Shown here one piece after another: positions 1,481 through 47,875 of a DNA stretch of 64,000 nt. Under the pieces are notes generated by a model that made no database searches, was not told where the DNA came from, and was given only the letters and a program-made list of their open reading frames with translations. The position numbers were made by a program, and so were the translations under genes. This DNA is from the human T2T-CHM13v2.0 reference genome, Homo sapiens. Every line of letters begins with the position of its first letter. The stretch's first letter is position 1. Location of the stretch: NCBI RefSeq assembly GCF_009914755.1, contig NC_060936.1; one strand, 5' to 3'.

Positions 1481-3759
1481 TCTTCAAAAAACATTTGGTC
1501 TTGCTTACAAATTAAGTTCATACTGTTGCCTAGCTTATAAAGTTCTTTCTCAGACTGATATAATGCACCTAAATCAAACCCTTTCTGAGTAAGTGTATAA
1601 TTATTGCGAAAGATAGAGCAACTATGTAGCTGAAAAATTTTAGGACACATTTAATGAAAACTATAAAAACTACAGTTTCACTTCTCTGATAGACTAGATA
1701 CCTGGAAGCAGTGTTTCACACCCATTTTGATATCATAGAATATAAAAAAATAGATTTCTAAAGTAGAACAAGATAGATAAATAATAGTTTATTTATAGTC
1801 TGTCAAATAGCAACTTGGATTTGTATAGCTCAGGAACTTCAATGCATAAAACGTGTCAGGGCATGCAAAGAAACAACTTTAGGAGAAACAACACTGTTGT
1901 TTCTTTGAAGATGTTTTCACTACAAGACCATTATAACCTGAGATAATTAGGTTAAACATATTGCTTTCTTTGTAAGAAATGAGGAAATCACTAAAGGAAG
2001 GCACTTAGTTAGAAGCAGAATGGGGAGCAGCATTTGGTAAATGAATTCAAAGGGCAAGGTGGCCCTTCATGGTAATAATCTATATATTGGTGCTGAGATT
2101 CTAAGAATAAGCTCTTGGTTTACTGAAAGGTGATGGGATAAATCAGTGAGCCTTTCATCAGTCTGAAACCTTAAAAAGGGCTTCAAGACATCCAAATCAT
2201 TAGCTACACCCTGCCCTCTTACAGATGAAAATGCAGTTAATCTCTGGAAGAAACAATCTTTAATTTTTCCTTATGAATCCCATTATTGAGGTCAACCAAA
2301 TTTTTAAAAATCATCAAATATTTCAGGAAACAAGCCAACATATCAATAGGAAATACAAAGAATGAATTTGGTCACCAAGGACTTTAGATATTTAAATAAT
2401 CCTATGTATTATAAAAAATAATGTTTAAATGGTTTTAAGAAATAAAAGAAGAAATAAAAACATCACATCACAACAACAAAAAACATCAAAAGCCAATAAG
2501 TTTGAAAATACATCCCTAGAATCAAAAACTGTTATCACTGAAATTAAAAACTCAGTGAATGAGAGCAGATGAGGAAAGCAGCAGGAAAAGGGATAATTAG
2601 TGAATTTAAAGATATATCTGAAAATATTGCTAAGAATTCAGCACAAATTGACAGGGACAAAATGTGAAGTTAGGTGAAATGGGGGCTAGAAAGCAAAGGC
2701 CCACTGCACATCTAATTTGAGTCCCAGAAGGAAACAAAGAGAAATTAGAGAAAGAATTTGGAATGGTGGTTGAATAGATCAACTACGTTTTACTTTACAT
2801 ATTTTAAGTCCATTTTGTTATTTTAAGATAAACTCATTTAGATTTGGTGTACTTTCCTAATCAATTGAAAGTAGAACCTTAGGAGAGGTAACTTACACCT
2901 CTATAACAATAGAATAAGGGTAAGAAAACAGATTTGGAAGCATTTAAAGCCAGAGCTTTATTTATTGTCTCCCTGTGTCACAGGTATAAGGATTACAAGA
3001 AAGTGTTTTTGCTTTGGGGATAATGTCTCACAAAGTTAAGAAAAATATTAACTTACATTGTACGAGATAGTCTTTAGATTGTGGTTGAGGGAGCTTGGGA
3101 ACATCAAAGTTCCCAAAGACTTTAAACACCAATGTAAAATCTTAATTAATCCCCAGAATTTGAATCTAGTTTATAATTTGGACATGGTAAGTCATTCTAA
3201 TATAATTGTTTCTGGATGTTATAAAAAGATATATAATATTTTAATACAGAATTAAAATGTAAATTAAAAAATTAAAATCAAATAACCTAAGAAAATTCAA
3301 AGGCCATCTACTGACTTTTAAAATATGCAAATACATTCATACGAGAGAGCAAAAGAAAGACTAACAAAATTAGCATTTACATTTTTAAATATGTAATAAC
3401 GTTAAAAAATTGAAAAACCATCTGCAATGACCATGAATTTTAAGAGGAAAGAAATTTTAACCCCAACCTGTGCTTGCACATACCCCAATAAAAAACAAAA
3501 TAAAATACAATTATTTCAATGAAATACTTTTAAATTCATTTAAAACTCATTGTATAAGCTCATTTGTCTCATTTTGCCTTGGCCCTTTACATGTTAATAT
3601 TTTTATCAGAATTGTAATGAGTCCATGAAAAGCAATGATCTAAACCATCTGTCTATTGTGATAGAGAAGTTTCTCCTCTATTCAGATATCGTCAAAGAAA
3701 ATCAAGGCTACTATTCATGCTTGGTTACTCAGGAATTTGGCAATACAAACTAATATTAC

Positions 3760-3867
3760 CTACTGAGGTGATTGTTCCAGATTTATTTTCCCCAGTACAG
3801 TTTTTCTCTTTTGGCTCATTATACAATTTAGTATTGGATAATGAATAGTATGTCATGCAGTGTTGAA
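3760..3867 (-). pseudogene. CLECL1: Putative ancestral CLECL1 stalk exon, open and symmetric (phase 1-1)
   Basis: Pyrimidine tract then CTAG acceptor; G|GTAAT donor; 108 nt; (V)QHCMTYYSLSNTKLYNEPKEKNCTGENKSGTITSV with two sequons and Cys. Confidence 0.7.
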
Positions 3868-5786
3868 CTAGACAACTAATGAAAGAAGAAACATGTTTTT
3901 CTAATTAGATACAAAGCCCAAAACCATTAGTCTGTAGTTATTCCATGAAGTCCAATGATATGGAAATTCCATATCAAAAGTTAAATGATTAAAAATTTAA
4001 GAGAAAAACATAACTACTCTTTCCAAGATTTAGAGTCTCTTTTGCACTCTTATTAACCTTAGCAATGTTAACTTTAAGAGAATTGGAAAAAATATGACCA
4101 GAAGAATAAGCACTTGAATTTTTTCCTGGAGCTGTCATAATTACTTTAATAAGGACAAAATGTCCAGCTCTGGATATGACTCATATTTAGATCATTTGTG
4201 TTTAGTGAGTTCCTATTAATTATATCAGGTGTCACCTGGTTGATGTTTTGTATGTTTTGGTTTTGGTTAATGATTTGTTCCTTTGAGATTCTGCATATAA
4301 ATGCTGCATATATGAGATAGAGTTAGCCCAGAGTAGTTTTTTTCTGCAACGAAGAAAATATTTGTCTTTCTGCTGGCCATTTAACTGAAATTATCTTTGA
4401 TAATTTATAGTCTCAGAACAATGTATATTAGGTTATTAGTATTGACCATCTAAAACCACATAAACACATCTGAAAGTAATAAAAGTAAATATTTAATAGT
4501 GCTTGTCATTTGCCAGGCATTAACACAAGATACCATATTCAGAATATATTTAATTCATTTAATGTATTAAATATATAATCTCTAATTCTTATGTTGATAC
4601 ATCGTACTTTTAATGCTTCAACATATATACATCATAATATAGTACATCCAATGCAAGAATTTTATTAGTGATGTAGCTGGGATTTGAAAACAGGTCCTGG
4701 GTCTCTAGAGTATCCGTGAACATCGTTGCCTTCTAGAGAAACTTTTTAAGAAGATATTTTATCTTTGAAATCTATTAGTAACACATCAATTTTAGTAGCA
4801 AAAAAATCTATTTTACTAAAAAACTATTTTAGTAACAAGAAAATCTATTGCCTTCTAAAACATAATGAAAAGTAGTATAGTAGGGATTTTTAATGCTAAT
4901 TATTTTTGCTCCCCCAACCCCATTTTATAGCCCTAATTATGCCATTGGCTAGTTACATTAAAGTAGTTAAACCACTTATCCCTCTGGGCTTCAGACTGCT
5001 CATCTAAACTAGACTTTGCTGATTTCTGGAGTCCCTTCTAGTTCTAAAGTTCTACAACTCTGCTTATTTATTTGTAATAGATAATGCCATTCATAATTAC
5101 TAACATAATTCTCTAAGATTCAGTGACATAGACACTGCATTGACCTTTTCTAGGGTTTAGTTTAATCTGGAAGCCTGAATTACTTGGAATATATATAATC
5201 TGTATATCATCTCTGTTCTACAGATATTTGTAAAGAACTTTTCCCCAAGCGTTTATTCAATAAAACATTAAAATAATGGCCATATGAATAATTGGGCTAT
5301 GTTTGGCTATGTCCAAAGTACATTAGTATAAATTTATAATGCTCAATGGAATTGATTTATTTTAGACAAATTTCTCACCTGTTGACACAAGATTGATGAT
5401 ACTTAGGAGTAGCAGATATGAATAAGCATACACAGAAACACAAGTCATAATTTAATTTGCTTCCTTCTGAACATGGTTTCAGAGACATCTGTGTATATCC
5501 CAACATCAAACTGCACCAGGCAATTCACTGCATGATCTTGATCATAAAATAAGCAACTAATCTTGCCATCTCTTTTCTTTATCATTGAGATGAATTTATA
5601 ATGTATATTTTATCACATGGTGAAATTCTATAGAAAATCTCTAATTTTAGTTGTGTATCAAATTTTACACTTTTTGTGAAGTTGTACCATATTGTTTAGG
5701 AACCATTTAAATAGCAAACACAGTTACAACAAGTTAGGAGAAAAATAATACCCTGAGATGAATAAATAATATTACTAATTACTTAC

Positions 5787-5872
5787 CCAAAATATTCAGT
5801 ACAATTACTATTACCAGAAGGATAATATTATTGCACATCCAACGTTAAGAACAATTCCATGGTGGTGAGAAT
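5787..5872 (-). pseudogene. CLECL1: Decayed ancestral CLECL1 transmembrane exon (1-nt frameshift)
   Basis: TTTTGTAG acceptor and GTAAGT donor; 86 nt; reads (D)SHHHGIVLNVGCAI / IILLVIVIVLNIL across a frame change. Confidence 0.8.
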
Positions 5873-6866
5873 CTACAAAATTGAATAGATTTCACTAGTA
5901 AACCCAGCAGGTAGCTCCTTAGATGGTAAGAGGTAGGAGAGGGCCAAATAAACTTTCTCACCTATCATGTTCCTGAGTTACTTTCCTTCGAAATATGTAG
6001 ACCCAGCTTCTTTTTTTTTTTCCACACAAAACACACATATGCGAGTATTCTCTGGTTTGAATAAATATGAATTTTTCCTTTTGGTTTCACTGTTTATATT
6101 CCCCAGTATTGATCTTACTTATGATCACTGTCTGTGTCTCTGGGTTTTTATATAAGACTGTGAAACCCTCAAGATTCTCTAATAAGCTTATTGACAACAC
6201 CCATTTATTTGAGCTGATCTTTTCTGTTTCTCCTCTTATATAATGTATCCATTTCCTGTGATATAGCATTGTAATTCCATAAAACCATACATTTAAACAA
6301 AAAAGAAATGTTAGAGATTATTTTAACGCAATACCCACGTGTTAAAATGGGGATATTCAAGTTCACAGTCACACAGTTACTTGAGAGCAGAGCTGATATC
6401 TAACCTCAGGTCTCTTGACTACCAGACTAGTGCTGCCTTCGGTATCCACACTTCTCATTGCATTTGAAGTACTCAAAAGATAATAAATAAACCAAATAAA
6501 AGAAGTTGTACTTTTAGCTTTAGGCTGAAAGTTTAAAACAACAGTCTCTGGTACATAAAAGTTACAGTACATTGTTTCCACTAGATATGTGACCTAAACA
6601 CACAATACACTGAGAAAGTACTGAAAATAGCTGATATTGAAATATAATCATATCAAGACTAAATGGAATGTTTATTTGGTAGATTATTATTGAGTGCATT
6701 GTTTTATGTGCTGATTATTATTGCTATTAATTAAAACATCTTTAATAGGAATTTGTTAATTTTCAAAACATTAAAAGAAGTCCACATATTTTCACTCATC
6801 AGACAAAACAGTCAAAATTGTGGGAGTCAAGTCAGTCACAGAAAGAATGTGGTGATGTCACTACAC

Positions 6867-9144: not shown

Positions 9145-9460
9145 CAGATCTCTGAAGTGGAAACGCGAGTTCTAACGGGGAAGTCCGAACAGTTTTGATG
9201 TCAGCGTAGACTACATCTCCAGCCATTGCACAGATCAAAAAGAGAGAGAAGACCACAAATGATGTCCCACTGAAGGGACAATCATATTTCTGCAAAGAAA
9301 CTTCTGATAAGTAAATTGAGATGGCAAATTTCCTTCTGCTCCCCAAGTGGGTGGTGGACTTCCTCCATGAATAAATGACAAAACCAATGTGTTCAGTCTT
9401 ACTAATCAAGGTTGCAGATTTCTCGAATACTTGTATGACTTGGAAGAAATTACTAACCAT
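9145..9460 (-). CDS. CLECL1: CLECL1 (DCAL-1, now often treated as CLECL1P) exon 1 ORF, 105 codons + 1 nt; downstream CTLD exon(s) lie left of the window
   Basis: ORF 9119..9460 matches the recalled DCAL-1 N-terminus (..KSATLISKTEHIGFVIYSW..MAGDVVYADIKTVRTSPLELAFPLQRS); GTAAG donor at 9144-9140. Confidence 0.9.
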
Positions 9461-23991: not shown

Positions 23992-24133
23992 AAGCTTCTT
24001 CAGGTTGTTAGCAAAACCAGTTTATTCGACTATAGTGCTGAAGTTTCCTTTTCTTCTTGGCTGAGGACTGAGAGCCTTTCTTAGCTTCTTAAGATCAACA
24101 GTCATTGTATTATTGATTTGTTGTCTAGGTACA

Positions 24134-24164
24134 TGATAGATGATAGATAGATAGATAGATGATT

Positions 24165-24203
<39 letters not shown>

Positions 24204-24205
24204 GA
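24134..24205 (+). repeat. (GATA)n microsatellite
   Basis: Direct reading. Confidence 0.95.
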
Positions 24206-24734
24206 TGGGGGTGGGGAGAGACAGATTCCTTTATCAATTATACGTGTTAGAATGTCTTCCACTCTGTGACGACTTGTCATTCTGTCCATGATGTCTTTTG
24301 AAAACTAGAAATCTGTAATTTTAAGCTTATAATGTGCAGATTTTTGTTTGTTGGTTTCAAGTTATTGGTAGGTATATGTAAAATAAGGAGAAAATAATGT
24401 GAACTTCAGGTCTCAGAACCTAGAAATTTGGAAGCAAGTCAACTTATGGTAATGTAGTTCTTTAGCATAGACGAAGCACTTTTACATGCATTATTTTAAT
24501 TACATTTTAAATTTGGCATTACAAATATTGAGAAATATGAATGGGGTGCAGCATTATCAAAGGTTAAGTTTTACTTTTCTAGATTATGCCATTTCCTTTA
24601 TAACTAGAAAAAATACAAAATGTAGTGTTGAGAGAGTGGTGACTGCCACATCTTTCCACAAAAGAAACCAAGAATCATCATCCACACACACACAAGCCAC
24701 TTGAGTGTAAAAAATAACCAAGATATATTTTAAA

Positions 24735-24945
24735 AATTTATTGTAAATTGACAAATTATAATTGTATCTATTTGTGGGGTATAATGTAGTGTTATTTGTA
24801 CACAATGTGGAATGATTCAGTCAAGCTAATTACCATATCAATCACCATCAAATACTTATAATTTTTCATTGTGAGAACATTTGAAATTTATTTGCTTCGC
24901 GATTTTGAAATGTGCAATATATTATTGTTAATTATAGCCAGCAAG
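24735..24945 (-). mobile_element. L1MA 3'-end fragment
   Basis: aattgacaaattataattgtat..gtgagaacatttgaaattta pattern. Confidence 0.7.
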
Positions 24946-24988
24946 AAATTATTTTTTAATGTCCTTTGACAATGACTTAACACAGAAG

Positions 24989-25023
24989 TGCAGTAATCTC
25001 ATACAGTCACTAGATGGCACTGC
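24989..25023 (+). promoter_or_regulatory. CTCF site (core plus upstream motif), copy 1
   Basis: TGCAGTAATC followed by TCACTAGATGGCACTGC; 18-nt offset between motif starts. Confidence 0.7.
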
Positions 25024-25191
25024 AGCTTTTGCAACAGAGATCTTTAAGACAGGCAGGAGGGGTTCTTGAAATAAACTCATTTTTCATATTTGTAATTGGT
25101 CACCAGACAGTAGAGTCATGCTTTAAATAATAAAACTATTCCCTTTAAGAATTATATATTTGTATCTATTTAAAGAAAACACTTTTTCTTA

Positions 25192-25740
<549 letters not shown>

Positions 25741-27059
25741 CTATTGTATATATTATTTTAAACTAGCAGCAATAATAGTTTGAGTATTCTTTCATATACA
25801 TAAATGTTCTTCATTATTTTTTAATGTTGGGATAGCATTTCATCATGTAGGAGCATTATATTTATTTAACTAAATCTTTGGTTTTGGACAATTAGGTAGC
25901 TTCTGATTTTTCACTACTAGAAATATCCCTTTGATAAACATTTTTGTGGTTATGTCTTGCACATCCAAGATTATTTCTTTAAAATCTCCCTCCCTCCCCA
26001 GTAAGTATTGTCAAGCTGCTTTCCAAAGGGTAAAGGAAACCAGTTTACACCATCACCAGCAGTCGTTCTGGTCATATATTTCCCAATATTTTTCCCTGAA
26101 AAATCATTTACATTTTAATTTCAGTTATAATACATTTTCATGTGCAAAATCTAATCAAATTATGAAAATTGACAGCAAGCTTAAAAATATCATTTCTATA
26201 TTAGTATCATACAATTTTTAAGTAGTTGAATACTGACTATAGCACCTAACAGTTCAATGGCATTTTAGCCTTTTTAAAAAGTTTTATCCAATCCCTACAA
26301 TTATGTGAAATGTGCAGCTGATGTATTCCCCTTTCCAGAGGAAGAAATTGAAATTATGTTGAAAAAGCAACGCAAAACACGGATAACTGATAGTTTTATT
26401 TTACACATATTTATGTAACTATCCAAGATGAATGTAGCCTACAGAGTTAAAATTTTGATAATTAGCTAAAGGTTTGAATACAGGAGTATATCTTTAATAT
26501 GCTTCCATAGCACCCTACGTTTTTCCTATTATAACATTCATCACACCATGTCAATTCATCTTGTTGTTTGTTTTACAAATAGACCACGAATTCCACAAGG
26601 CCAGTTGCCATGCGGAATTTGCTGAGTATTTTAACTCTGGTGTCCACCATAGTAGTAGGTGCTTACTTATAACTTGTGAAATGAAATTTTTAAAAGGCTT
26701 TCCAAAAACAAATACAAATAAGATATATTACGTAGAAATAGACATGTCGTGTAGAAACGCGGCTTTATGCCAATACTGGAAGTTTGAAGACATAGTGTTT
26801 CTAGTTCTAATAATCATCATGAGTATTTAATACATGCCTATGGTGTACTAGGGAGCCAGATAATGTTTTAAGTTTGTTTTCATGTACTAACTAATTTAAC
26901 ATCTAACTAATTTTAGCTGAATTTTGAACGAGTTCTGATAAAATAGCTAGTCAGCCCGCGCGTGGCAGAGATGAAACTCGGGCGGTCTGGCCCCCGTGCT
27001 TTGGGTCTCAGCAGCTCCACGCTCCACATAGATGTTTTGTAGGATCCTTAAAACAGAAG

Positions 27060-27094
27060 TGCAGTAATCTCGTATAACCACTAGATGGCACTGC
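27060..27094 (+). promoter_or_regulatory. CTCF site (core plus upstream motif), copy 2
   Basis: TGCAGTAATC followed by CCACTAGATGGCACTGC; near-consensus. Confidence 0.8.
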
Positions 27095-27848
27095 AACTTT
27101 TGTAACAGGGGACTTAGCCGGGGGCAGGAGGGGTTCTTGAGACAAACCCATTTTTTATATTTGTCATTGGTCACTTGCAAGTAGAGTCATACTTTAAATA
27201 ATAACATTATTCCCTTTAAGAATTGTATATTTTTTATCTATTTAAAGAAAACAGTTGTCCTTATGAATAAAATGACTTCAAATTATGTGTAAAAAATAAC
27301 TCTGTTATCCGTGTTTTGCGTCGCTTTTTCAACATAATTTCAACTTCTTCCTCTGGAAAGGGAAATACATGAGCTACTCATTTCACATAATTATAGGGAT
27401 TCAATAAAATTATTTGTAAAAATGATAAAATTCATTGAATTGTTAGGTGATACAGTCAGTATTCAATGACTTAAAAATTGTGTCATACTAATATAGAAAT
27501 ATTTTTAAGCTTGCTCTCAATTTTCATAATTTGATTAGATTTATGCACATAAAAATATGTTATAACTAAAATATTAATCGCAAGACATTGTTTTCTAAGA
27601 TGACTCGGGAGTAGATTGTTGGTAATGATAGAATATTACAGCTAGGAGGCTGCTTGTTTCTTTTTTCCCACAGCTGTGGGAACTCAGGAGCACAGAGGTC
27701 ATTATTTTTCACTAAGCAGTGTCTGAAATCCACATTTCTGTTTGCCGTTTGCCAATAGTTTAGAGATACCATACACATCATACATTTCCAACAAGCAGAG
27801 AAGAATATTGCAAATTACATTTATAAAACAATTTTGAAGGTAATCAAA

Positions 27849-28278
27849 TGTATTAGGCTATTCTTGCATTGCTATAAAAATATCTGAGACTGGGTAATTT
27901 ATAAAGAAAAAAGGCTTAATTGGCTTACGGTTCTGCAGTTTTTACAAGCATAATGCTGACACTGCTCAGCTTCCGCGGAAGCTTAGGGAGCTTTTATGTA
28001 TGTTGGAAGGTGAAGTGGAGTGGGAGCAGGCATGTCACATGGAGAAAGCAGGAAAGAGAAAGAGAGAGAGAGAGAGAGAAAGTGCTGCACACTTTGAAAA
28101 GACCAGATCTCCTGAGAACTCACTCAGGTGCAAGGAGACCATCAAGAGGATGATGCTAAACCATTCATGAGAGATTTGCTCCCATGATGTAATCACCTCC
28201 CACCAGGCCCCACCTCCAACAAAGGGGATTACAATGCGACATGAGATTTGGGCAGGGACACACATCCAAACTACATCA
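27849..28278 (-). mobile_element. MST (MaLR) LTR
   Basis: tgtattaggctattcttgcattgctataa start, ccaaactacatca end. Confidence 0.85.
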
Positions 28279-28640
28279 TTGAGTTTTTTGCTGATTGAAA
28301 TATCCCATGAAGATTATGCCTCTTTTCTATATATTGAATTATTTTACATAAATAACTAAAGTGTATATAGCACCTCAGAATTGAACAAGATACTTTCAGA
28401 GCATTGACTATGAGGAGTAATTATTACAGAGCATCTGCTATATACAGAAAAATGGATATGGATACATACACCCTTTAGCATATAAGCATATGAAAACAAT
28501 TTGATATGTATAAGCTATTATAAAACTAAGGGTTTTACTCTACATGGGATTTTTTTCTAAGTTATAGTAACTCTGTTTTCTGCTTTCTCATATAGTATAT
28601 ACTTTTTAATGTATTTTGAAGGAATGAACTTTCTTGGAAA

Positions 28641-29638
28641 CCATTGTGTTTATTCTACTTTTATTTCACATATATAAAAACAGCTTATAATTGTACTGAA
28701 CACAAAATACAAACAAATACATTTTATTGCACATAAAAATATTTTAAATGAAGTATTGAAGTATTGCACGTAATAGAATTGATTTAGGAAAGTCACAAAC
28801 CTATTATAAGACTAGTATTATTCTAGGTCTGAAGATTACAGAATATTTCCTAATAGAGATTTGCCACATCACATATTGCACATTTTCCAACACTATTCTA
28901 TGTCTTGCAAATATTCCTCATAGTCTTTGCTTATGTCTTTTCTCTGTAAGACACTGTATAAAAGATTATAAAGGCAAAGAAATATGTACCATCGAAAAGG
29001 ACCTGTCTACAGCTGAGGAAGTAAAAAAATAAATACACGATCATCCCATTCTTTTTGGGGAAAAATAACAAAGTAAATTGGCAAATTTCTCTAAAAAGAG
29101 AGAAATATTACAAATCTTAGTTTCATAAGCATTTGTCCATTTATAAATGCTCCCTGAGTTTAAGGGATTCAATTAGACTAAAAACCTATGTTACCAGCCA
29201 TAATTCCTTTGTTTACATTCAGTATCTAGTACCAACATCTAACTCCTTCCAATAGTGCAAATGCATGAAGGGCTCTCACTGTTGGTAGTCATTCAGCAAT
29301 AAATAGTAAGTCCACGCCTAGTTATTTCATTATTTCTGGATTCAAAATAATATAAAGTGCATCCAAAGGTTGCATAGTCATTCTTCTCATTCTTGGGCAT
29401 GGTTATTGGTCAACCTGTGATGCTTCTAGCTCATGGCAATAAAAGCCCACAGTGCAGATTTTCCTGGAATTTCTTCCTTTTTTTCCATAGTTCTGTTTGG
29501 AAGAAAATTCCCAAGACACTATAAAATTTTTTTTCACAAAGTCTCTATGGAAGACTTCGGACCACAGAGCAGCATCCACTGACACAGATTTCCTTGAGTT
29601 CCATTCTATAATAGTCAATAAGTGAACATGTTTCCTTA
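28641..29638 (-). other. CD69: CD69 3'UTR (AU-rich, many miRNA seed sites)
   Basis: AT-rich with scattered ATTTA pentamers on the minus strand; ends just past tandem AATAAA hexamers. Confidence 0.9.
28649..28665 (-). terminator. CD69: CD69 polyadenylation signals (two AATAAA)
   Basis: tttatt on + at 28649-28654 and 28660-28665; a further AATAAA at 28723-28728. Confidence 0.85.
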
Positions 29639-29747
29639 TTATTTGTAAGGTTTGTTACATATCCAGTATAAATTCTTCTCACATTCCATGCTGCTGACCT
29701 CTGTGTTTTTCAGAAAAACACACTTGTCAGACCCTGTAACGTTGAAC
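29639..29747 (-). CDS. CD69: CD69 exon 5 coding part (FNVTGSDKCVFLKNTEVSSMECEKNLYWICNKPYK*)
   Basis: 109 nt ending in TAA at 29641-29639; exons sum to 64+123+200+104+109=600 nt (199 aa). Confidence 0.98.
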
Positions 29748-30743
29748 CTGTCAAACAATAAAAAAACTTAGAATTATTTTCAGCTCATTGTTTTCATTCA
29801 GTTACATGAGAATGAACTCGGAGATGGTGACCTCTGCTTCTTTTAAATTCTTAGTGGGATACACAAGTCAAATAATCATAGACTAATCTGTAGAGACAAT
29901 GGACAAGAATTGAAAAAAAATAGGATGTGGAGAAAAAATATGGAAGTAAGAGGAAAGCACGCCATTCATTTGGTTGGCATGGCACCAGATAAGTGATTCT
30001 TGGTCATTTCTGAGTTCATAGATTTTTCAATAAATAATTTCACAAAATTATATGCATTCAACAGCCATGCATACTAGTGCATACAGCTTTAAGGGGTTTA
30101 TGGCTCCTGAAGCCCATCTGTGGATATGGAGCCATAGGACAAATATTAGGAATCCCTTTTCTAGAAACCTGAATTTTAATCTCGATACTTTATCAGTATT
30201 ATGATCAACAGCAAACTTATAAAATGATCTTCAAACATTAAATGTATTTTAACTAAAGGTAATGAAAATAGAGTATCTAATTCTGGGGCAAATTTTCTTT
30301 CAGGTGTATAGAAACTCATAATTAGGCATTGAAACTATTCTTTATTCTGTGGAGATGAAAACTGAGAAATAGTAAGAAGGATTTATTTTCCAGCAACTGT
30401 CTTATTAGTAAAGACTAAATGTGACATTGAAAATGGGTTTTTGTTGCATCATCATAATTATTATTGAAATATTTCCAAATTAACCAGATCTACTACTCAC
30501 ATTAGAGTTTGCTGAGAAAAATTACTATAAGCATTTATTTTATGTATTATAAGTGTGGATAAAGAAAAAGAATAATAATAAAGCCTGTTATTAAAGAATT
30601 CCAGAGTATACGCATTCAGAAGAGATTGTTAGAGCTCTTGAAGAGCTCAGCCTTTATATTTAAAGTGCTTTGAAAGGAGAAAAGGAAAGTGATTTTCCTG
30701 AGATGCCACCCTGGGGAATATAAAGAGACTTCTGGAGACTTAC

Positions 30744-30847
30744 CAGTTGTTAAATTCTTTGCCATTTGACCACTTCCATGGGTGACCAGGTTCCTTTTTC
30801 AGTCCAACCCAGTGTTCCTCTCTACCTGCGTATCGTTTTAGAAAGTT
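30744..30847 (-). CDS. CD69: CD69 exon 4 (NFLKRYAGREEHWVGLKKEPGHPWKWSNGKEFNNW)
   Basis: 104 nt; AG at 30849-30848, GTAAGT donor; WVGL motif of the CTLD. Confidence 0.98.
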
Positions 30848-31218
30848 CTTAAAGAAAGCACAAAGGAGTTTGTTACATTAAACACCCTTCTGGGGAAGTA
30901 GATAGTAAATCCTGTTTCTCAAAAGCTGCAACTTGAGGCATGACAGCTTATCTGACCATGTACTCATTCTATATAGGATCAGCATATTTGGATTTCTGGT
31001 CTTTGAAGCTAAGCAATCAAATCAAATTTAAAAGATTAAATTAAATCTCATTTTGACCTCAGGCTGATCATATGGTTCTCTGGGATGACATTTTCCTACA
31101 TCTGAAATAGGTACAATGTTTGTTTGTTTGTTTGTTTTCTCCACTTAGAAACGGAAGGAAAGCACTGATTAGCCATATGAATTAAAATAGTAGTATTTTA
31201 TCTTTTTTTTATTCTTAC

Positions 31219-31418
31219 CATGTCCTTTTCAGAATCAATGACAGCAAGAGTAGCACCATGTTCAGAACAAGCATTTTGGGCTGAAGTCCAGCTCCTCTTC
31301 ACAGTAGAAATAAAGTAGCATTTCCTCTGGTAGCCAACCCAGTCCTCAGAGCATGAAGAAACATGGCTGTCTGATGGCATTGAGAATGTGTATTGGCCTG
31401 GACAATTGTATTGGCCCA
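31219..31418 (-). CDS. CD69: CD69 exon 3, neck and start of the C-type lectin-like domain (VGQYNCPGQY..CSEDWVGYQRKCYF..SEKDM)
   Basis: 200 nt; AG and GTAAG boundaries; seen in ORF 31198..31617. Confidence 0.98.
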
Positions 31419-32453
31419 CTGTGAACAGAAAAATGCTTTGTTTTAGTAACAAAAGAAACCAAATACCCACAGCATGCAAAACTAGCCTTAGGATGCTATG
31501 TTGTGCTAGGTGGTGATAAAGTAAAGGATAAAAGCTAAAAAGTAGAATTCTGAAAAGGGTATGAAGAAAGAAAGTTCTCAGGACCATATCTGATCTTCCA
31601 TTGTGCCTAATCATCATTGGATGGAGATATGAGGATGAGGGGATGTACTTTTGGTCATAATGTCAGAAAATGACAGAAATATAGAACAATTCTGAAAATT
31701 TGGACTAGATATTTCTTTGGACTAGAAAGGATAAAGTGCATTATACATTTCAAATAAGGTTTTGAATCTGAATGCAGAGGCGGAAGAATTTGAAGATGCA
31801 GTATTTATAGCACTAGGCTGGAAAGATGGAGAGAGTAACTAACTTTTAGGGAACCAATTCAAAATACAGAAAGACATATGACTCAGAATATCTCAAAACA
31901 ATGGTAAACATTCCCATTTGTAAAAGATACAAATATATCTTGGTATAGCTGGAGGTATTGAATACCAAATCACTACTGACTCTCTGGGAACTTTTAAATA
32001 TAATCTTAATTATTCAGAACTACCATTCTGTGTCCTTTGAGATAAAACACAAAAGACTGGCCACTTCCTGATTAATCTATGGCTTTAGATACGATTTTTT
32101 TCCATAATCAATGAATGTGAAGTTCACATTTTTTTCTAGCTAAATAGGTATTTATTCAGAATTCAAATCAGCTCCCTTCATTCTAGATGTAAACATCTTT
32201 TCAAATGCAATTTTATTCTACAGTAATATATAAATCATAGATACTTTTAATACTTATAAAAGTATTACATTAATTATTCAAGGATTGTGGAATTATGTTT
32301 AGTATTGATTAGGAAATTGGCCATATATGGTACATGGGATGATTCTGAATTAGCTAGTTTCTGATTAACTAGACTAAACTAATATTGATTTCAGCTGGGC
32401 ATGAATGCTTACAGCTAGGAGGCTTTGAAAGAATTGATGAAGTGTAGACCCAC

Positions 32454-32576
32454 CTGATAAGGCAATGAGAGCTATGATTAAAATGGTGATGAAGACCACA
32501 TTCATTACAGCACACAGGACAGGAACTTGGAAGGACCCTTCATGACGTGTTGAGAAATGGGGACTGGTGGCATCAT
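32454..32576 (-). CDS. CD69: CD69 exon 2, transmembrane segment (..VPVLCAVMNVVFITILIIALIALS)
   Basis: 123 nt; AG acceptor at 32578-32577, GT donor at 32453-32452; phase 1-1; seen in ORF 32374..32655. Confidence 0.98.
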
Positions 32577-32950
32577 CTGGAAGGGAGAAAGTTGATGATG
32601 AGTTCAGGCAGACTATAGAAGTACTATAGGAATATGCAACATTCTTTTGAGGCATTTAAACTTAATATTTCCTATCTCATTATATGAAATTTCCCCGTCT
32701 CTTTATAGAAATTTCTAAGTTAATTTACCCCCAATTTTGAGTGAATTTGAATAGTTTATTGTTGGCTTGAAATGAAACAATTCAAGCATAATGATGAGAT
32801 TATAAAGTGTCTCCCCAAAATATTTACCTGACACATATGATTTATACACTTAGTAACTATGAAAATTCTAAGTATATAATCAGTTTGTTTTAATGATGAT
32901 AAGAACGTTTATTAAATATGCACATGCCCCAGAAGACACATAAAAAAATT

Positions 32951-33265
32951 CTAGGGCATGGTGGCTCACACCTGTAATCTCAGCATTTTGGGAGGCCGAG
33001 GTGAGTGGATTGATCACCTGAGCTCAGGAGTTCAAGACCATCATGAGCAACATGGTGAAACCCTGTCTCCACCAAAAATACAAAAAATTAGCTGGTCATG
33101 GTGGCACGCACTTGTGTTCCCAGCTACTTGGGAGTCTGAAGTGGGAGGATCGCTTTAGCCTGGGAGGCAGAGGTTGCTGTGAGCGGAGATTGCACCACTG
33201 CACTCTAACCTGAGTGACAGAGTGAGACCTTGTCTAAAAAAATAAATAAATAAATAAATAAAAAA
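32951..33265 (+). mobile_element. AluJ in CD69 intron 1
   Basis: Alu body with (AAAT)n tail; aaattctag flanks. Confidence 0.93.
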
Positions 33266-33379
33266 TTCTAGCATAATTCCTTAATCTCCTTGTAGTTACT
33301 GTTTGAGAGAAATGATGTGAATGGGATAAATATGGATAATATCATAAAGTAAAATATTGAATTGCTATATAAATATCTG

Positions 33380-34075
33380 ACATTAAAATGACTGAACAAA
33401 ATTTTAAACGTGACAGTATTTTTTGGTGAAGTTGCTGCAGATGTGGAGCAACTGGAATTTTCAGATATTATTGGTGGGAGAGTAAATTGGAAAAACACTT
33501 TGGAAACTGTTTCTTATAAAATTAAATATATGCCTTTTCTATGGCCCAACAAACCTATTCCTATGTATATCCTCAAGAAAAATGAAAATATGTTCTCAAA
33601 ATGCCTTGTGCAAGAATGCTCCTAGCAGCTTTATTCTTAAGAGCCAAATTCCAGAAATAATCCAAATATCCACCAACAGGAAAATAAGTGAACAAATTAT
33701 GGTATATCCATACAAGGGAATTCCGCTCAGCAATTCAAAATAAGACAACTGATACATGCAACAAAATGAAGGAATCTCCAAAAAAAATGTTGAGTGAAAA
33801 AAAATCCAGCCACAGAAGATTGTATACTACATATTTGCATTTACATGACGTTAAATAATAGTTGGTCTAAGCTCTGGTGTCAAAAATCAGAACAGTAGTT
33901 GCCTTTGTGTGTGTAGGAAAGGTAATTTAACTGGAATGGGACACAGGGCAAACTGTCTAGGGTGATGGAAAGATTCAAATGTTGCTGGTCTTGTGGTTAT
34001 ACCACTGTCATAAGTCGTTAAACTGTATACCTACGAGCTGTGCATTCATTGTATGTGAACTAAACCTCAATTTAA
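33380..34075 (+). mobile_element. Old L1 (L1MC/MD/ME) 3' end in CD69 intron 1
   Basis: gatgtggagcaactggaa..gtaaattgg..cagctttattc..tggtatatccataca pattern. Confidence 0.75.
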
Positions 34076-34649
34076 AATGATATGTGAATGAACAGTAAAA
34101 ATTTGAATTTTTCAAAAGATGTTAAAATAATAGAGGAAATGTAACAGTATTATAGACCAAATATTCAGCGAAAGTTATTTCATTTACCCTCTGTACAATG
34201 GTGAAACAAAGTAAAAGCCTTTTTTTTTTTCCAACAAGCAGTGTTTCTATGGAAGGATTTAGAATAAAAATATGATGTTAACGATAACTGATAGTTACAA
34301 AAAACTCTAAGAGGATGTCTGTTCTACACTCTAAGTAAATAACTGAGGAAGGAGAAAAGAGAATTTTGCGACTTAGATTTTGGATTTTAATTTTGCAGGA
34401 TGAGCTGTCAGGAGTCTTAAAATGCGGCCCCACAAGGAGTATACAGGTCCCTATTATGTTCTCAAAAACCAAAATGTAAAATGGCTGCTTAAGTAACTGA
34501 CAATGCAAAACAGTTTCAAAATAGAAAACATTCTATTTTTCAATATGGATGATTTTCATAACTTAAAAAAGTTTACATAAGACATATCTTGAAATACACA
34601 TATTTTTACCCTTAAAACATTTATCTAAAGGTAAACTGGACCAAGAGAT

Positions 34650-35060
34650 GTTGCCTTTTTTTCACAGTAATTTACTGGGTACTGGTGTCCACATCAACTT
34701 TTGCTTTATCTGGAAGTTATTTTTCCCATCACAGATCGGCACTCAGATTTTGCAAGAGAAGCCTTTACTTCACTGCCGTCTAGCTCGATTTTCTCAGCTT
34801 CTCAAAGCAAATTTTTCTTTGTTCACCGGTATAGAATCATCATTGGAAGCCGCCTTTGCTACCCAAGGTACCAAGTTCGGAGCTCTGTCTGGTTTCACTT
34901 CACATTATGTGAGTCAGTCGTGCTGCTTGAACTCAGTATTGCAACAGCTCTGTCTCCTCAGTGAGCACTAACACACCCCAGTGACCCGTGGGTTCCAGAG
35001 TCTCAGTCAGCCCATCGGCTCAACGAGGGAGTAAGCTTTGGGATGACTCTCAGATGATAC
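34650..35060. promoter_or_regulatory. Candidate CD69 intron-1 regulatory element
   Basis: Unique sequence with locally higher CpG; AP-1 tgagtca 34910-34916; IRF-like ggtttcacttc 34891-34901; octamer atttgcat nearby at 35721-35728. Confidence 0.45.
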
Positions 35061-35088
35061 TTTATTCCCATTAATGAGGGCTACTGTT

Positions 35089-35361
35089 TTATTTATTTAT
35101 TTTTTGAGACGGAGTCTCGCTCTGTCGTCCAGGCTGGAGTGCAGTGGCGATCTCGGCTCACTGCAAGCTCCACCTCCCGGGTTCACGCCATTCTCCTGCC
35201 TCAGCCTCCTAAGTAGCTGGGAGTACAGGCGCCCACCACCATGCCCAGCTAACTTTTTGTATTTTTAGTACAGACGGGGTTTCATCGTGTTAGCCGGGAT
35301 GGTCTCCATCTCCTGACCTCGTGATCCGCCCACCTCGGCCTCCCAAAGTGCTGGGATTACA
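35089..35361 (-). mobile_element. AluY, 5'-truncated, in CD69 intron 1
   Basis: AluY diagnostics; TSD tgagggctaytgtt. Confidence 0.93.
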
Positions 35362-36912
35362 ATTGAGGGCTATTGTTACCCACAGCTTGACTTATCTCCT
35401 AGGTGACAAAACATTTCCCTCAACAGCACACTTTTGCTTTGATTTCAGGTCCTGCACATTAATGGAGAAGTTGAAAATCAACTCAATTTGCTACTAATTG
35501 AATCACCCAAGGATAACGTCCAAGGATGACTAGGGCAGCCTAAATCAGACATTCAAAAGAAAGTTGAAACAGTATCAGGAAAAGTTAAAAATTTCTGTAT
35601 TAGGTCCTTCTTTCACCTATGCTCTCTATTTATTGAGTAGTTATTATTATTATTATTATTATTATTTCTTTTTGGCGGCACACCTGTGCCGTAAGTAATG
35701 GCTCGCCTGATTACCTGAAAATTTGCATGCTTTGCATTTGTAATCCACACTATATTTTATGTTCTTAAACACAGGATGGATTTATGAGAAGTAACTGATG
35801 TTTTTCGGAAGTAAACTAATATAGTAGACACACGCTTAGAAAATAATCCCTTTCCACAAGATTGTTTTAGTTCTCCTGTTTCTTACATATCCCTTTGTTA
35901 ATAGATCGCTCTTGCTGACAAGTAGACTAATTCCTAAGTGCTAGTGCTTTAGGGTACCTCATTAACTAAGGAGAAAGAGGGATAAATAGAAAAACTCAAC
36001 AAATTTTACAGAAGTAAGGTATAGAAAAACAATAGGCAAAATCCCAGTAACAGGAAATAAGCTAGATATGTGGATAGAATAGACAAATAGAAGAGAGGAA
36101 AATTTCTAAGATGATTATATTTTGCTGAGAGACAAAGGAAAGGAAGAACAAATTCTAAGTTACATAGTCTTTGAAGCCAGAGATTGGAAAGGTTAAATAG
36201 AAGGATGAAATAGAGGAAAAGAGTCCTATAAAGAATACCAAAGCAGGAGATTGCATTTTCGGGAATTCTTTTGTGACTTTTTTTTTTAGCAAATTACAAA
36301 TGGACACTGTAAATTTTCATCTGCTGATATAGCTATTCTCTCAAAGATGGCAAACTTGCCCATTTCCAGCAACTAGAGGATGCTGTCATGAGAACACAGG
36401 ATAAGGTACACTGAAAGCAGACACTGAATGCAAAGGAAGGCAAACAATGTAATTGCTTATGTGGAAAACAGAATTTTTCATAAAGAGAGACAACACTTCC
36501 TGGAGAATGTACAGATGGATATGAAAAAAATGATGGAGAATAACTGGGCTAGAGCAGAAAGTTTTCTAATTAAATCTAAACACTGAGATGATATAAACTA
36601 AAGCAAAGAGAAAGATCTTTAAAGATCTTCTGAAATTCATTTTTGCGGCTTTCTCTCATCTCAGGTATTCTATCTTCTTATAGATAAAAAGGGGTTTACC
36701 TCTTCCCTGAAGAAGAACCTGTCTTCTCTAAAAGACAAAGCCTCACTTCCTTCCCTAACAACCATTAGATATCACATACATAGAGATTAGCAGTATATTT
36801 CTCTAAGATTATATATCATATATAGAGAGATTACCAGTATATCTTGTATAACTACTATTAATGTCATATATAGAGATACCAGAGAGTAAATAGGCAATCA
36901 GATCTGACTTAC

Positions 36913-36976
36913 TTTCTTGTCCACTCTCCGGATGCAAAGAGCTGTTCTCTGCTACGAAACAATTTTCAGAGCTCAT
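36913..36976 (-). CDS. CD69: CD69 coding exon 1 (MSSENCFVAENSSLHPESGQE+1 nt), cytoplasmic tail
   Basis: ATG at 36976-36974; 64 nt coding; GTAAGT donor at 36912-36907; translation matches the known CD69 N-terminus. Confidence 0.98.
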
Positions 36977-37056
36977 CTTTATTCTCAAGATTCCCTAGTT
37001 AATCTCAGGTCAAGTCAAGCTACAGTGAAAGTCTTTGCTGGAGCTCTTGTTGAGTC

Positions 37057-37430
37057 TGTGAGGCTCTGAGGCATCTCAGAGTTTATACTCCCTGATGATG
37101 TCTCCGCCCCCTTCCTCTTGCCGCCTACTTGCTTGACTACATTGTTTCTCTTTAATTTATGCTCCAGTGGACCAGACAATGTATAGTGTGTTGTTGTGGT
37201 GAAGTATGGGTTTTCCCTGTTGTCTGAAATGTGCTTTCTCACAACTGTAAGGTGTAGCAGGAGGAAAGTGGGATTTTCCCAGACTCTGAGACATCCTGCC
37301 TTAAATTTCTAGAAAACATAAACAGTTTAGGAGACAGCATAATCTAAGTAAAGAATTAAAAGTTAGAGGTTCCTGTCTTTGAGATGAAGATAATTTGGAG
37401 AAGGAGAGTGTAGTATTTTCCAGGAATCCC
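37057..37430 (-). promoter_or_regulatory. CD69: CD69 proximal promoter
   Basis: TSS about 37057 (81-nt 5'UTR, recalled); AP-1-like TGCCTCA 37067-37073; TATAAA 37082-37087; GC box GGGGGCGGAG 37102-37111; NF-kB-like sites 37208-37217, 37270-37280, 37421-37430. Confidence 0.9.
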
Positions 37431-38199
37431 GTTTATCGATTTATGCATACATTTAACTGATATTTACTGAACACCCCCTATGCACCTGACACTGTCTGGG
37501 GCCCCAGGATTTATTGCTGAACATGAATTTTAAGATCTCTATGCTCATGGATCTCTCTCCAGCTTGAAAGGGTTTTATTTAGAAAGCTACGAATTGGTTT
37601 TTGGAAGTGTGTCATTCGCTTCTTCCCTGGTGACTAGATGTATCACGTAGTAAGAAGTAAGAATGCAGGAAACAGAAAGCTTGTGGTCTGGAACTTCCTT
37701 GCTATGCTCTAAAATTGTTTATCTTAAATTATCTGTTTCATTTGTTTCCTGCTAATTTTCTTGTCACATTTTACTGTCATTTAGACTGCTTTTATGTCAC
37801 CTCAGTAACAGCTCCTTCAATTCTCCCCCTGTGCTCTAGGTTATTCTCTTCAGATACCTCTGAGACTTCAGTCTTTTGAGGTATGATTATTATTTAAAAC
37901 ATCGCTGTGGTATCAGTCTCACTCAGACAAGTAATGACAGTCAACGCAAGATGAATGCAGAAAGCTATGTATGGTGATTTAAGGAGGGAAATCAAAATAC
38001 CACTCTGATTAATAATCTTGGTGCCCCAAATTTTATTATTAATATCACTTATTTAGAATAAAGACGTTAAATTTTATGCATAGGTGGGTTGGAAGTTATC
38101 ATCTAGAGAAGTTAGTTGGACCATTAGATGCATTTGTCTACCTAAGACACAAAGAGGTACATGTTGGCCCTAAAAGCTCCCTTTGCTTCCATCCTATTT

Positions 38200-38800
38200 T
38201 TCAGTCAATTTCTTAGTCCCTTTTCCACATAGCAGCTAGAACCATTGTTTTATAATTAATTCATATGATTTTGGTGAAGTGTTTAACTCCTCCCCCCACT
38301 GCACTTTGAAAGGCTTCCTATCAAATGTACCGTAAAATCCAAAGACCTAATAGTTGAGAATGCTTTATACATAATATGGCCCCTGGTTACCTCTCTTATC
38401 ATTTTTCCTATTATTCAGTATCCTCTCTGACAGAAACCTCCTCCTTAAAAATGCCAAGCATCCTACCACTACAGGGCTTTTACTTTTTCTCTAAAAGATT
38501 CTTTTTCCATCTCCCTGCATGTCTCGCTCTCCCTTTAACCGACTCACTCTTCAGCTGCCACCTGCTCAGAGAAATTGTCAGTTGCTATTATATGTAAAAT
38601 AGAACCTCACACTCTGTGCCTGTACAGATTGCTGTCAATATCTGATATTATATCATGGTTTATTATCTGTTTCCCTTACTAGACTGTAAGCTGCTTGAGG
38701 GCAAGGGCTTTGACTTGTCTCCTCTGTGCCTCTAACACCTGCCGTAGTAACTGGAATCTAGTATGTATTCCATGCCCTTACTGAATGCGTGAATGAATGA
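38200..38800. mobile_element. L2 fragment
   Basis: tactagactgtaagctgcttgagggcaagg..gaatgaatga L2 3' end. Confidence 0.7.
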
Positions 38801-39655
38801 AAAATATGTATAAAACTCTAAAAGTTCTAAAATATGGAGTGCTATTTATTGGGGTTCGTAGGATTGTTTGGTTGAGAAGTGTATGACCTTAGGCTGCTAC
38901 ATGCAAAGAACCAGGTAATACATAGGAATGGATGTGAGGTCATTTATATAGGTCATCAGGCATGGTCTTGTTGAGGAGGTCATATGTGGAATTAAATAAA
39001 AATGGGAGGAAAGAGTTAACCATTGAAAATTTGAGAACAGAAAGAACAAGAACAAGAACACACTCTATAAAATAAAAAGAAGTTTAGCTTCTTTAAGGAA
39101 AAGAATGAAGGTAAGTGCAGTAAGCCAGTAGTGCTTCAGGAAATTGACCATACAAGTCCACTGAGCTTTGGCTTTGTTATCTGTAAACTAAAAATATAAC
39201 ATCCAATTTATAATGTTTCTATGAAGAAAAATTATGAATTCTAAATTTTTTTAATATAGTATTTGGTACATATTATGCCTTCAATTATATGGAAGGGAGT
39301 GACAGTTTGGTACACGTCATGAAAAGAGAAAGTTCCTCATTTGATGTAAGGCATTCAGAGATAATAACTGAGAAGTCACAGCATAATTGCTGATGTAATG
39401 TAATGTGTCTCTTCTCCGTCTGAGAAAGAGACAGAGGAAACTGCAGTCTCCTACAACCACCTCTAGCAGTTTTCATGGTACTAAGACTCATTTGCTCAAG
39501 GTTTCTTGCTTCTTCAACCATAATCAAGTTAATGGATGTGTGTATACACACACACATCTAGTGTGCACACGTTTTTATATATATGTTACGTATAATATAT
39601 ATTTACATATATGCCCTAAGCCACAGAAAAATGATACCTAGAAATCTTATTTTGA

Positions 39656-40291
<636 letters not shown>

Positions 40292-42918: not shown

Positions 42919-43234
<316 letters not shown>

Positions 43235-47535: not shown

Positions 47536-47596
<61 letters not shown>

Positions 47597-47622
47597 ATAT
47601 ATAGTGAACCCTGACCAATACA
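46874..47622 (+). mobile_element. MLT2 (ERVL) LTR, internally rearranged, with (TA)n
   Basis: tgtgatggttaat start, gaaccctgaccaataca end. Confidence 0.8.

Positions 47623-47829: not shown

Positions 47830-47875
<46 letters not shown>

What the first reader, a model, noticed from the sequence alone, without database searches (positions are those of the whole stretch)
5787..5872. Hidden, frameshifted transmembrane exon in CLECL1 intron 1
Seen: the minus strand reads TTTTGTAG|ATTCTCACCACCATGGAATTGTTCTTAACGTTGGATGTGCAATAATATTATCCTTCTGGTAATAGTAATTGTACTGAATATTTTGG|GTAAGT, with canonical splice sites and a length of 86 nt. Spliced to the phase-1 exon-1 donor (9145) it gives DSHHHGIVLNVGCAIILSFW* (TAA at 5813-5811). 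Restoring one base near 5823-5831 gives DSHHHGIVLNVGCAI-x-IILLVIVIVLNIL, a typical type II TM segment ending in phase 1. Established: NK-complex lectin-like genes, including CD69 in this window, carry the TM in a phase 1-1 exon. Inference: this is the true ancestral exon 2, and the 1-nt loss is the lesion that destroyed the receptor. Transcripts that include it should be NMD targets, which could explain why the annotated mRNA skips it.
Basis: partly seen in the sequence, partly recalled or inferred. Interest (0 to 1): 0.9.

Follow-up and report, generated by a model that had tools for sequence, protein, structure and literature searches.

The report
Frameshifted membrane-anchor exon of CLECL1
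This 86-base stretch is the leftover membrane-anchor exon of an immune receptor gene that is intact in most mammals but broken in humans and macaques, and it is only one of several breaks in a gene that databases already list as a pseudogene.

Summary
Minus strand 5872..5787 is an 86-nt exon with AG and GTAAGT splice sites. Joined to exon 1 (9226..9145, phase 1) it stops at TAA 5813-5811.

The main interpretation holds. Intact CLECL1 orthologues from 21 placental mammals, including two strepsirrhine primates, carry an 87-nt, 29-codon TM exon with the same boundaries. A profile of that exon matches the human exon in two frames: positions 1-16 (E 4.5e-9) and positions 17-29 (E 1e-3). This places a 1-nt deletion within 5831-5824. 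A macaque model ends in the same out-of-frame residues, so the deletion predates the ape/Old World monkey split.

Three points do not hold:
- The exon is not hidden. RefSeq lists it as an exon of other transcripts.
- It is not shown to be "the" lesion. The neck-exon relic (3875..3760) has two stops and 17 extra bases, and the last two lectin-domain exons are undetectable.
- The NMD argument is weak. The stop lies 24 nt before the junction, and intact orthologues also have TM-exon-skipped isoforms.

GENCODE already lists CLECL1P as a pseudogene. This is an ordinary unitary-pseudogene relic with useful detail.

The parts
9145..9226 (-). CLECL1 exon 1 coding part. It holds the ancestral start codon and a 27-codon cytoplasmic tail with an ITIM-like VxYxxI motif. 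The donor is in phase 1.
   Evidence: The orthologue exon-1 HMM gives E 3e-14. 23 of 27 residues equal the consensus. The motif is present in 20 of 21 orthologues. The hub table gives coding 9145-9226.
5787..5872 (-). Relic of the ancestral TM exon (exon 2). It is 86 nt, against 87 nt in orthologues.
   Evidence: Orthologue exon size comes from the Bubalus isoforms (216 versus 187 aa, 29 codons). RefSeq lists it as an exon of other transcripts (hub table).
5873..5874 (-). AG acceptor of the TM exon.
5781..5786 (-). GTAAGT donor of the TM exon.
5824..5831 (-). A/T-rich run that holds the 1-nt deletion. The exact base is ambiguous. The reading frame switches between profile positions 16 and 17.
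   Evidence: two-frame HMM hits. (16 codons in the first frame ending at 5826 and 13 codons in the second frame starting at 5826 share one base).
5811..5813 (-). Premature TAA created by the frameshift, 24 nt upstream of the exon's 3' end.
3760..3875 (-). Relic of the neck (stalk) exon 3, not in the hub's RefSeq table. It is 116 nt from the ancestral acceptor, against 99 nt in orthologues. The ancestral frame has TAG 3870-3868 and TGA 3855-3853. A second AG 8 nt downstream (exon start 3867) would give an open 108-nt phase 1-1 exon.
   Evidence: Neck HMM positions 13-33 give E 3e-9. The orthologue size of 99 nt comes from the Microcebus isoforms (223 versus 190 aa).

Best explanation
5787-5872(-) is the decayed transmembrane exon of CLECL1. 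In most placental mammals this gene encodes a type II lectin-like receptor of about 220 residues, built from six exons. Exon 1 gives a short cytoplasmic tail with an ITIM-like motif. Exon 2 gives the TM anchor (87 nt, phase 1-1). Exon 3 gives the neck (99 nt, phase 1-1). Exons 4-6 give the C-type lectin-like domain. On the lineage leading to humans and macaques one base was lost in an A/T run in the middle of exon 2. A ribosome coming from exon 1 therefore leaves the TM frame after 16 codons and stops 4 codons later. The exon kept its splice sites and is still used in some annotated transcripts, where it can only give a truncated product. Because exons 1, 2, 3 and 4 all join in phase 1, skipping exons 2 and 3 keeps the frame. 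This yields the annotated human ORFs: tail plus the first third of the lectin domain, ending by read-through of the exon-4 donor or in an unrelated exon. The gene is a unitary pseudogene with several independent lesions, and this frameshift is one of them. Shown here: exon identity, position of the frameshift, sharing with macaque, neck damage, and absence of exons 5-6. Inferred: the direction of change (deletion in catarrhines), the timing, and the lack of a receptor function in humans.
For: (1): a search with 40 residues around human exon 1 returned a donkey protein (P0008, PF00059-positive). After the exon-1 residues it continues with a DSHHHG...GCA...hydrophobic segment, then neck and a full CTLD. 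(2): 42 proteins at E<=1e-3, named from horses, rhino, bats, carnivores, cetartiodactyls, elephant, manatee, anteater, mouse lemur and galago. I aligned 21 full-length ones and the TM exon is among the best conserved parts. (3): the exon-wise HMMs find human exon 1 (E 3e-14), exon 2 in two frames (4.5e-9 and 1e-3), exon 3 (3e-9) and exon 4 (2e-32), in the expected order on the minus strand. (4): isoforms lacking exactly the 29 TM codons (Sturnira, Tamandua, Bubalus, Dama) or the 33 neck codons (Microcebus, Tursiops, Cervus) fix the orthologous exon boundaries. These coincide with the human AG/GT sites. (5): macaque model P0007 ends with the same four out-of-frame residues as the human read-through. 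(6): orthologues hit Pfam Lectin_C (E about 1e-15), while human P0001/P0002 and macaque P0007 hit nothing. (7) (passage seen): GENCODE biotype of CLECL1P is given as pseudogene. (passages seen): 28 individuals of a cohort described in the abstract as 77 were homozygous for a CLECL1 LoF allele.
Against: No nucleotide alignment with other species could be made, so the comparison rests on proteins, and most of those are automatic gene predictions. The only non-human catarrhine evidence for the frameshift itself is one computational macaque model. RefSeq (hub table) still calls the human gene protein_coding and selects a transcript with an 89-codon ORF, so curators disagree on pseudogene status. 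The exon keeps a perfect donor and is still annotated in transcripts, so a residual regulatory role is not excluded. Human exon 4 is intact, and only 3 of 20 near-invariant positions are changed. That is compatible with either recent decay or some remaining constraint.
Confidence: 0.9

Rival explanations
1. The exon now works as a regulated 'poison' cassette. Its inclusion makes an unproductive mRNA and so tunes CLECL1 transcript output in B cells and myeloid cells. This does not exclude the relic reading.
For: The exon keeps AG and a consensus GTAAGT donor and is annotated in other transcripts (hub table). CLECL1 isoform usage is genetically controlled in B cells: an sQTL of an MS risk variant is reported, although for the 3' isoforms (passage seen).
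Against: The stop is only 24 nt from the exon's 3' junction, so the exon1-exon2-exon4 form is not a predicted NMD target. The productive ORF it would regulate encodes a protein without a recognisable domain. No expression data could be examined here.
Confidence: 0.1
2. The exon still codes in humans. Either the internal ATG at 5838 in the TM frame, spliced to exon 4, gives a 79-residue membrane-anchored fragment, or a frame-restoring allele segregates in the population.
For:: from ATG 5838 the TM frame is open through exon 4 (79 codons) when exon 2 is joined directly to exon 4.
Against: Exon 1 holds the MAGD start codon. A further ATG at 5860 inside exon 2 opens a short frame that stops within the exon (frame 0), and both lie 5' of ATG 5838. 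The bases around 5838 are a poor start context (judged against the Kozak consensus, recalled). Even so, the product would have only one third of a lectin domain. Population data could not be consulted.
Confidence: 0.03
3. The match is a chance or exonised intronic sequence, or the frameshift is an assembly error of this genome.
For: None found.
Against: HMM E-values are 4.5e-9 and 1e-3, with the next best about 1. The exon boundaries match those of the orthologues. The same out-of-frame ending occurs in an independent macaque model. The sequence is single-copy.
Confidence: 0.01

Closest known systems
CLECL1 / CLECL1P (DCAL-1), the annotated human gene itself
   Same: Same locus, and the exon is already an annotated alternative exon (hub table). 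GENCODE lists the gene as a pseudogene.
   Different: I found no paper that maps the lesions. Searches. The published 167-residue protein (P0001) starts in what is the 5' leader of the ancestral gene and lacks the ancestral TM, the neck and two thirds of the lectin domain.
Intact mammalian CLECL1 orthologues (for example P0015 mouse lemur, P0008 donkey, P0025 pig)
   Same: Same exon order, phases and boundaries. 24 of 29 TM-exon residues are identical to their consensus.
   Different: They have 87 nt, an open frame and a full Lectin_C domain. The human exon has 86 nt and a stop.
KLRF2 (NKp65), KLRF1 (NKp80) and NKR-P1B, the killer-cell lectin-like receptors of the NK gene complex
   Same: They are the closest solved lectin domains to the intact orthologue: KLRF2 E 4e-22, NKR-P1B about 1e-17, KLRF1 9e-17, against CD69 1.3e-11. 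The best paralogous hit in the human genome lies inside KLRF2 (C12:9779254-9779385:+, E 2e-6). All are type II proteins with a TM exon. The ITIM-like tail resembles that of inhibitory members (resemblance recalled).
   Different: This is a separate gene sitting between CLEC2D and CD69. No ligand or signalling has been tested. The human copy is broken.
CD69 exon 2 (32454-32576) in this window
   Same: It is also a phase 1-1 TM exon following a phase-1 first exon.
   Different: There is no detectable sequence similarity. The CLECL1 TM-exon HMM does not hit it. CD69 is intact.

Membership tests
Orthologous TM exon (exon 2) of CLECL1 | Lies between exon 1 and the neck exon, on the same strand and in the same order. 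| tested here: met
   Exon-wise HMM hits at 9226, 5872, 3850 and -988 (window coordinates) on the minus strand.
Orthologous TM exon (exon 2) of CLECL1 | Sequence matches the orthologue profile beyond chance. | tested here: met
   E 4.5e-9 and 1e-3 in two frames, next best about 1, among 6984 peptides. 24 of 29 residues equal the consensus.
Orthologous TM exon (exon 2) of CLECL1 | Exon boundaries and phase (1-1) coincide with those of the orthologues. | tested here: met
   TM-skipped isoforms of 4 species remove exactly the 29 codons that the human AG..GT sites bracket.
Orthologous TM exon (exon 2) of CLECL1 | 87 nt with an open frame encoding a hydrophobic helix. | tested here: not met
   86 nt, with a stop at 5813-5811. 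It is therefore a relic, not a working member.
Unitary (unprocessed) pseudogene | Intact orthologues exist in other lineages. | tested here: met
   21 full-length proteins aligned out of 42 hits.
Unitary (unprocessed) pseudogene | Disabling lesions in coding exons. | tested here: met
   Exon 2 frameshift. Exon 3 has two stops plus 17 extra nt. Exons 5-6 are undetectable, while CD69's equivalents are found as positive controls (E 0.043 and 1.9e-6)..
Unitary (unprocessed) pseudogene | No intact copy elsewhere in the same genome. | tested here: met
   A whole-genome search with P0015 found 44 matches at E<=10. Apart from this locus, the best is KLRF2 at 45% identity.
Type II C-type lectin-like receptor of the NK gene complex | Complete C-type lectin-like domain (Pfam PF00059). 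| tested here: not met
   Human P0001 and P0002 have 0 families. Orthologues P0015 and P0008 hit at E about 1e-15.
ITIM-bearing inhibitory receptor | [ILVS]xYxx[ILV] in the cytoplasmic tail, and recruitment of phosphatases. | tested here: inconclusive
   The motif is present in human exon 1 and in 20 of 21 orthologues. The consensus is recalled, and signalling cannot be tested here.
NMD-triggering poison exon | Premature stop more than about 50-55 nt upstream of the last exon junction (rule recalled). | tested here: inconclusive
   The stop is 24 nt from this exon's own junction. The rule is met only in transcripts with a further downstream junction, whose structures I could not see.

The most novel reading that the evidence does not exclude
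The intact CLECL1 of non-catarrhine mammals is an uncharacterised inhibitory (ITIM) receptor of the KLRF/NKR-P1 type. Like KLRF1-CLEC2B, KLRF2-CLEC2A and KLRB1-CLEC2D, it would recognise a genetically linked CLEC2 neighbour: either CD69, which a review describes as having no known binding partner (passage seen), or CLEC2D, with which it lies tail to tail. Old World monkeys, apes and humans would then have lost a whole receptor-ligand axis, and the human 'DCAL-1' protein studied so far is a by-product of the wreck.
Probability: 0.15. Interest if true: 0.7.

Novelty: already known. Interest (0 to 1): 0.3.

Why it matters
CLECL1 is repeatedly named as a candidate gene at a multiple sclerosis / type 1 diabetes risk locus. 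It has eQTL and sQTL effects in monocytes, B cells and microglia (passages seen). Its product is treated in the literature as a type II membrane lectin. The lesion map made here covers a TM exon frameshift, a damaged neck exon and two missing lectin exons, all set against intact orthologues in 21 mammals. It gives a concrete basis for the pseudogene label and shows which parts of the ancestral receptor the human ORFs lack. It cautions against reading the risk signal through a receptor function of the human protein. It also points to pig, horse, bat or lemur CLECL1 as the place to learn what the receptor did. As a sequence feature it is an ordinary relic exon, and it is already in the annotation.

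Tried and rejected
- I looked for relics of CTLD exons 5 and 6 in window -24000..-1157. I used tblastn with 4 and then 21 orthologues and HMMs. Only weak hits appeared (best E 0.026 at -11751..-11828, with a stop), which I judged to be chance. The whole-genome search gave nothing near the locus for residues 150-223.
- I tried to date the deletion more finely. No protein named from a New World monkey, tarsier, rodent or lagomorph appeared among the 11, 42 and 5 hits. Some hits are unnamed. This is weak evidence, because pseudogenes get no protein models.
- The CLECL1 TM-exon HMM does not detect the CD69 TM exon, so I make no claim of sequence homology between the two TM exons.
- Kyte-Doolittle analysis could not dismiss the hydrophobic stretch of the published 167-residue protein as a possible anchor. 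Its best 19-residue window scores 2.16, against 3.45-3.58 in orthologues.
- Literature: no paper describing the frameshifted TM exon was found. One search was badly framed and uninformative. Searches gave nothing relevant. The original DCAL-1 paper (Ryan et al. 2002, recalled) is not in the library, so I did not see it.
- No complex prediction was run. The sequences needed are spliced human CD69, or CD69 from a species with intact CLECL1, and neither was available in an admissible form.

Full report
**Observation.** The minus strand of 5872..5787 is an 86-nt segment preceded by TTTTGTAG and followed by GTAAGT. The coding part of CLECL1 exon 1 (9226..9145) is 82 nt, so its donor is in phase 1. 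Joining the two gives 27 exon-1 codons, then 20 codons from exon 2, then TAA at 5813-5811 followed by two more stops. A different frame of the same exon reads 13 very hydrophobic residues up to the donor (mean Kyte-Doolittle 3.6) and ends in phase 1. The 261 bp around the exon occur once in the genome. The hub's RefSeq table lists 5787-5872 as an exon of other CLECL1 transcripts, so the exon is not hidden from annotation.

**What it is.**
- A protein search with 40 residues around human exon 1 returned 11 proteins. Besides catarrhine CLECL1 models it found a 293-residue donkey protein (P0008) with a Pfam lectin domain. After the exon-1 residues this protein continues with a DSHHHG...GCA...hydrophobic stretch, a neck and a full lectin domain.
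- A second search with that region gave 42 proteins at E<=1e-3. They are named from perissodactyls, bats, carnivores, cetartiodactyls, elephant, manatee, an anteater and two strepsirrhine primates (mouse lemur, galago). No haplorhine primate or rodent name appears in that list.
- I aligned 21 full-length ones, leaving out shorter isoforms, fusions and fragments. The TM segment is one of the most conserved parts.
- I built a profile for each exon-sized block and searched 6984 six-frame peptides covering window -24000..64000. Exon 1 is found at E 3e-14 and the neck at 3e-9 (ORF 3904..3728). The first lectin exon is found at 2e-32 (window -988..-1157, outside the window).
- The TM exon is found in two pieces: profile positions 1-16 in ORF 5891..5814 (E 4.5e-9) and positions 17-29 in ORF 5844..5782, in another frame (E 1e-3). 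The next best hit anywhere has E about 1.
- The 16 codons of the first frame and the 13 of the second share one base at 5826, and 24 of the 29 residues equal the orthologue consensus.
- Orthologue isoform pairs fix the exon sizes and boundaries. Bubalus 216 versus 187 residues differ by exactly the 29 TM codons (87 nt). Microcebus 223 versus 190 residues differ by exactly 33 neck codons (99 nt). The human AG and GT sites bracket the same residues.
- The human exon is therefore the orthologous TM exon, one base short, with the loss somewhere in the A/T run 5831-5824.

**Age.** A macaque model (P0007, 96 residues) runs from exon 1 into this exon and ends with the same four out-of-frame residues as the human read-through. 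The deletion is therefore shared by humans and an Old World monkey and is absent from the two strepsirrhines. I could not place New World monkeys or tarsiers, because no named protein from them turned up. That is weak evidence only.

**Other lesions.**
- *Neck exon.* The neck-exon relic lies at 3875..3760 and is not in the hub's table. From the ancestral acceptor (exon start 3875) it reads VV*FNTA*HT, where orthologues have V-I/V-Q-F-x-S-A-R-H-T. The stops are TAG 3870-3868 and TGA 3855-3853. The exon is 116 nt long instead of 99, and the rest of it matches orthologues in another frame.
From there the exon is 108 nt, phase 1-1 and open. I regard that as possibly fortuitous.
- *Lectin exons 5 and 6.* No relic was found between exon 4 and window -24000. 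The same profiles do find the much more distant CD69 exons, at E 0.043 and 1.9e-6. The whole-genome search finds nothing near the locus for residues 150-223.
- *How the human proteins end.* The 167-residue protein ends by reading through the exon-4 GT donor. The 191-residue one ends in an unrelated exon at window -5027..-5113. All 6 catarrhine models that extend past exon 4 use that unrelated exon.
- *Domain content.* Human P0001/P0002 and macaque P0007 hit no Pfam family, whereas P0015 and P0008 hit Lectin_C at about 1e-15.
- *Relaxed constraint.* Human residues differ at 3 of 7 near-invariant columns in exon 1 and at 3 of 20 in exon 4.

The frameshift is therefore one of at least three classes of damage. 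All of them are seen in catarrhine models as far as the data go, and their order is unknown.

**Splicing and NMD.** Exons 1-4 all join in phase 1, so skipping exons 2 and 3 keeps the frame. This gives the 89-codon ORF from the ancestral start, which is the C-terminal part of P0001. TM-exon-skipped isoforms are annotated in four species with an intact exon, and neck-skipped isoforms in at least three. Skipping is therefore not peculiar to the broken human gene. The premature stop lies 24 nt from the exon's 3' junction. By the usual 50-55 nt rule (recalled), an exon1-exon2-exon4 mRNA would escape NMD. Only forms with another downstream junction would be targets. I could not see the 13 transcript structures or any RNA data.

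**Comparison with what is known.**
- GENCODE lists CLECL1P as a pseudogene (table passage seen). RefSeq in the hub table still calls the gene protein-coding.
- A review places DCAL/CLECL1 as a more distant relative of the CLEC2 genes, lying between CLEC2D and CD69 (passages seen).
- A human-knockout study reports 28 individuals homozygous for a CLECL1 LoF allele, in a cohort that its abstract gives as 77 (passages; abstract in the listing).
- The locus is an MS/T1D risk locus with eQTL and sQTL effects on CLECL1 (passages seen).
- I found no paper that describes the frameshifted TM exon or maps the lesions. The original DCAL-1 paper was not available.
- The intact orthologue's lectin domain is closest to the solved structures of KLRF2, NKG2D, NKR-P1B and KLRF1, rather than CD69. 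The best paralogous genomic hit lies in KLRF2. Its tail carries an ITIM-like motif in 20 of 21 orthologues.
- The ancestral gene therefore looks like an inhibitory KLR-type receptor rather than a CLEC2-type ligand. This is resemblance only, since no function was tested.

**Verdict.** The claims that the exon is hidden, that the deletion is the destroying lesion, and that NMD explains skipping are not supported. The feature is an ordinary relic exon of a gene already labelled a pseudogene, so the interest is modest. The useful by-products are the full lesion map and the pointer to an uncharacterised ITIM receptor in other mammals.

Noticed in passing
window 3760-3875 (-): Unannotated relic of the CLECL1 neck exon. 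It has two in-frame stops (3870-3868 and 3855-3853) and 17 extra bases relative to the 99-nt orthologue exon. A tandem AG 8 nt downstream would give an open 108-nt phase 1-1 exon.
   Followed up: yes
outside the window, window coordinates -24000..-1157 (L002-L004): No relic of CLECL1 lectin exons 5 and 6 was found, although the same profiles detect the CD69 equivalents at 30743-30877 and 29642-29767. This suggests a deletion or replacement downstream of exon 4. The 191-residue isoform's last exon, at -5027..-5113, is unrelated to a lectin domain.
   Followed up: partly
window 9227-9478 (-): The 5' leader, which supplies the N-terminus and the hydrophobic stretch of the published 167-residue protein, is similar to N-terminal extensions in the donkey and bear models. 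However, part of it (9334-9423) matches the donkey in a different frame and with a stop. This suggests conserved non-coding leader sequence rather than conserved coding sequence.
   Followed up: partly
window 9146-9226 (-): The ancestral cytoplasmic tail carries an ITIM-like VxYxxI motif. It is kept in humans and in 20 of 21 orthologues.
   Followed up: partly
window 5838 (-), exon 2: An ATG in the TM frame would give a 79-codon ORF (TM remnant plus exon 4) if exon 2 is spliced directly to exon 4. The start context is weak, and upstream ATGs make its use unlikely.
   Followed up: partly
P0033 (Bos mutus) and P0038 (Ovis hybrid): Gene models that fuse a CD69-like N-terminal part to CLECL1. They look like read-through predictions and imply that the two genes are neighbours on the same strand in bovids, as they are in this window.
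   Followed up: no
G000:C12:9779254-9779385 (+), window about 169254-169385, outside the window: The closest human paralogue of the first CLECL1 lectin exon lies within KLRF2 (E 2e-6, 45% identity). It ranks ahead of KLRF1 (E 0.007) and CD69 (E 0.016).
   Followed up: partly
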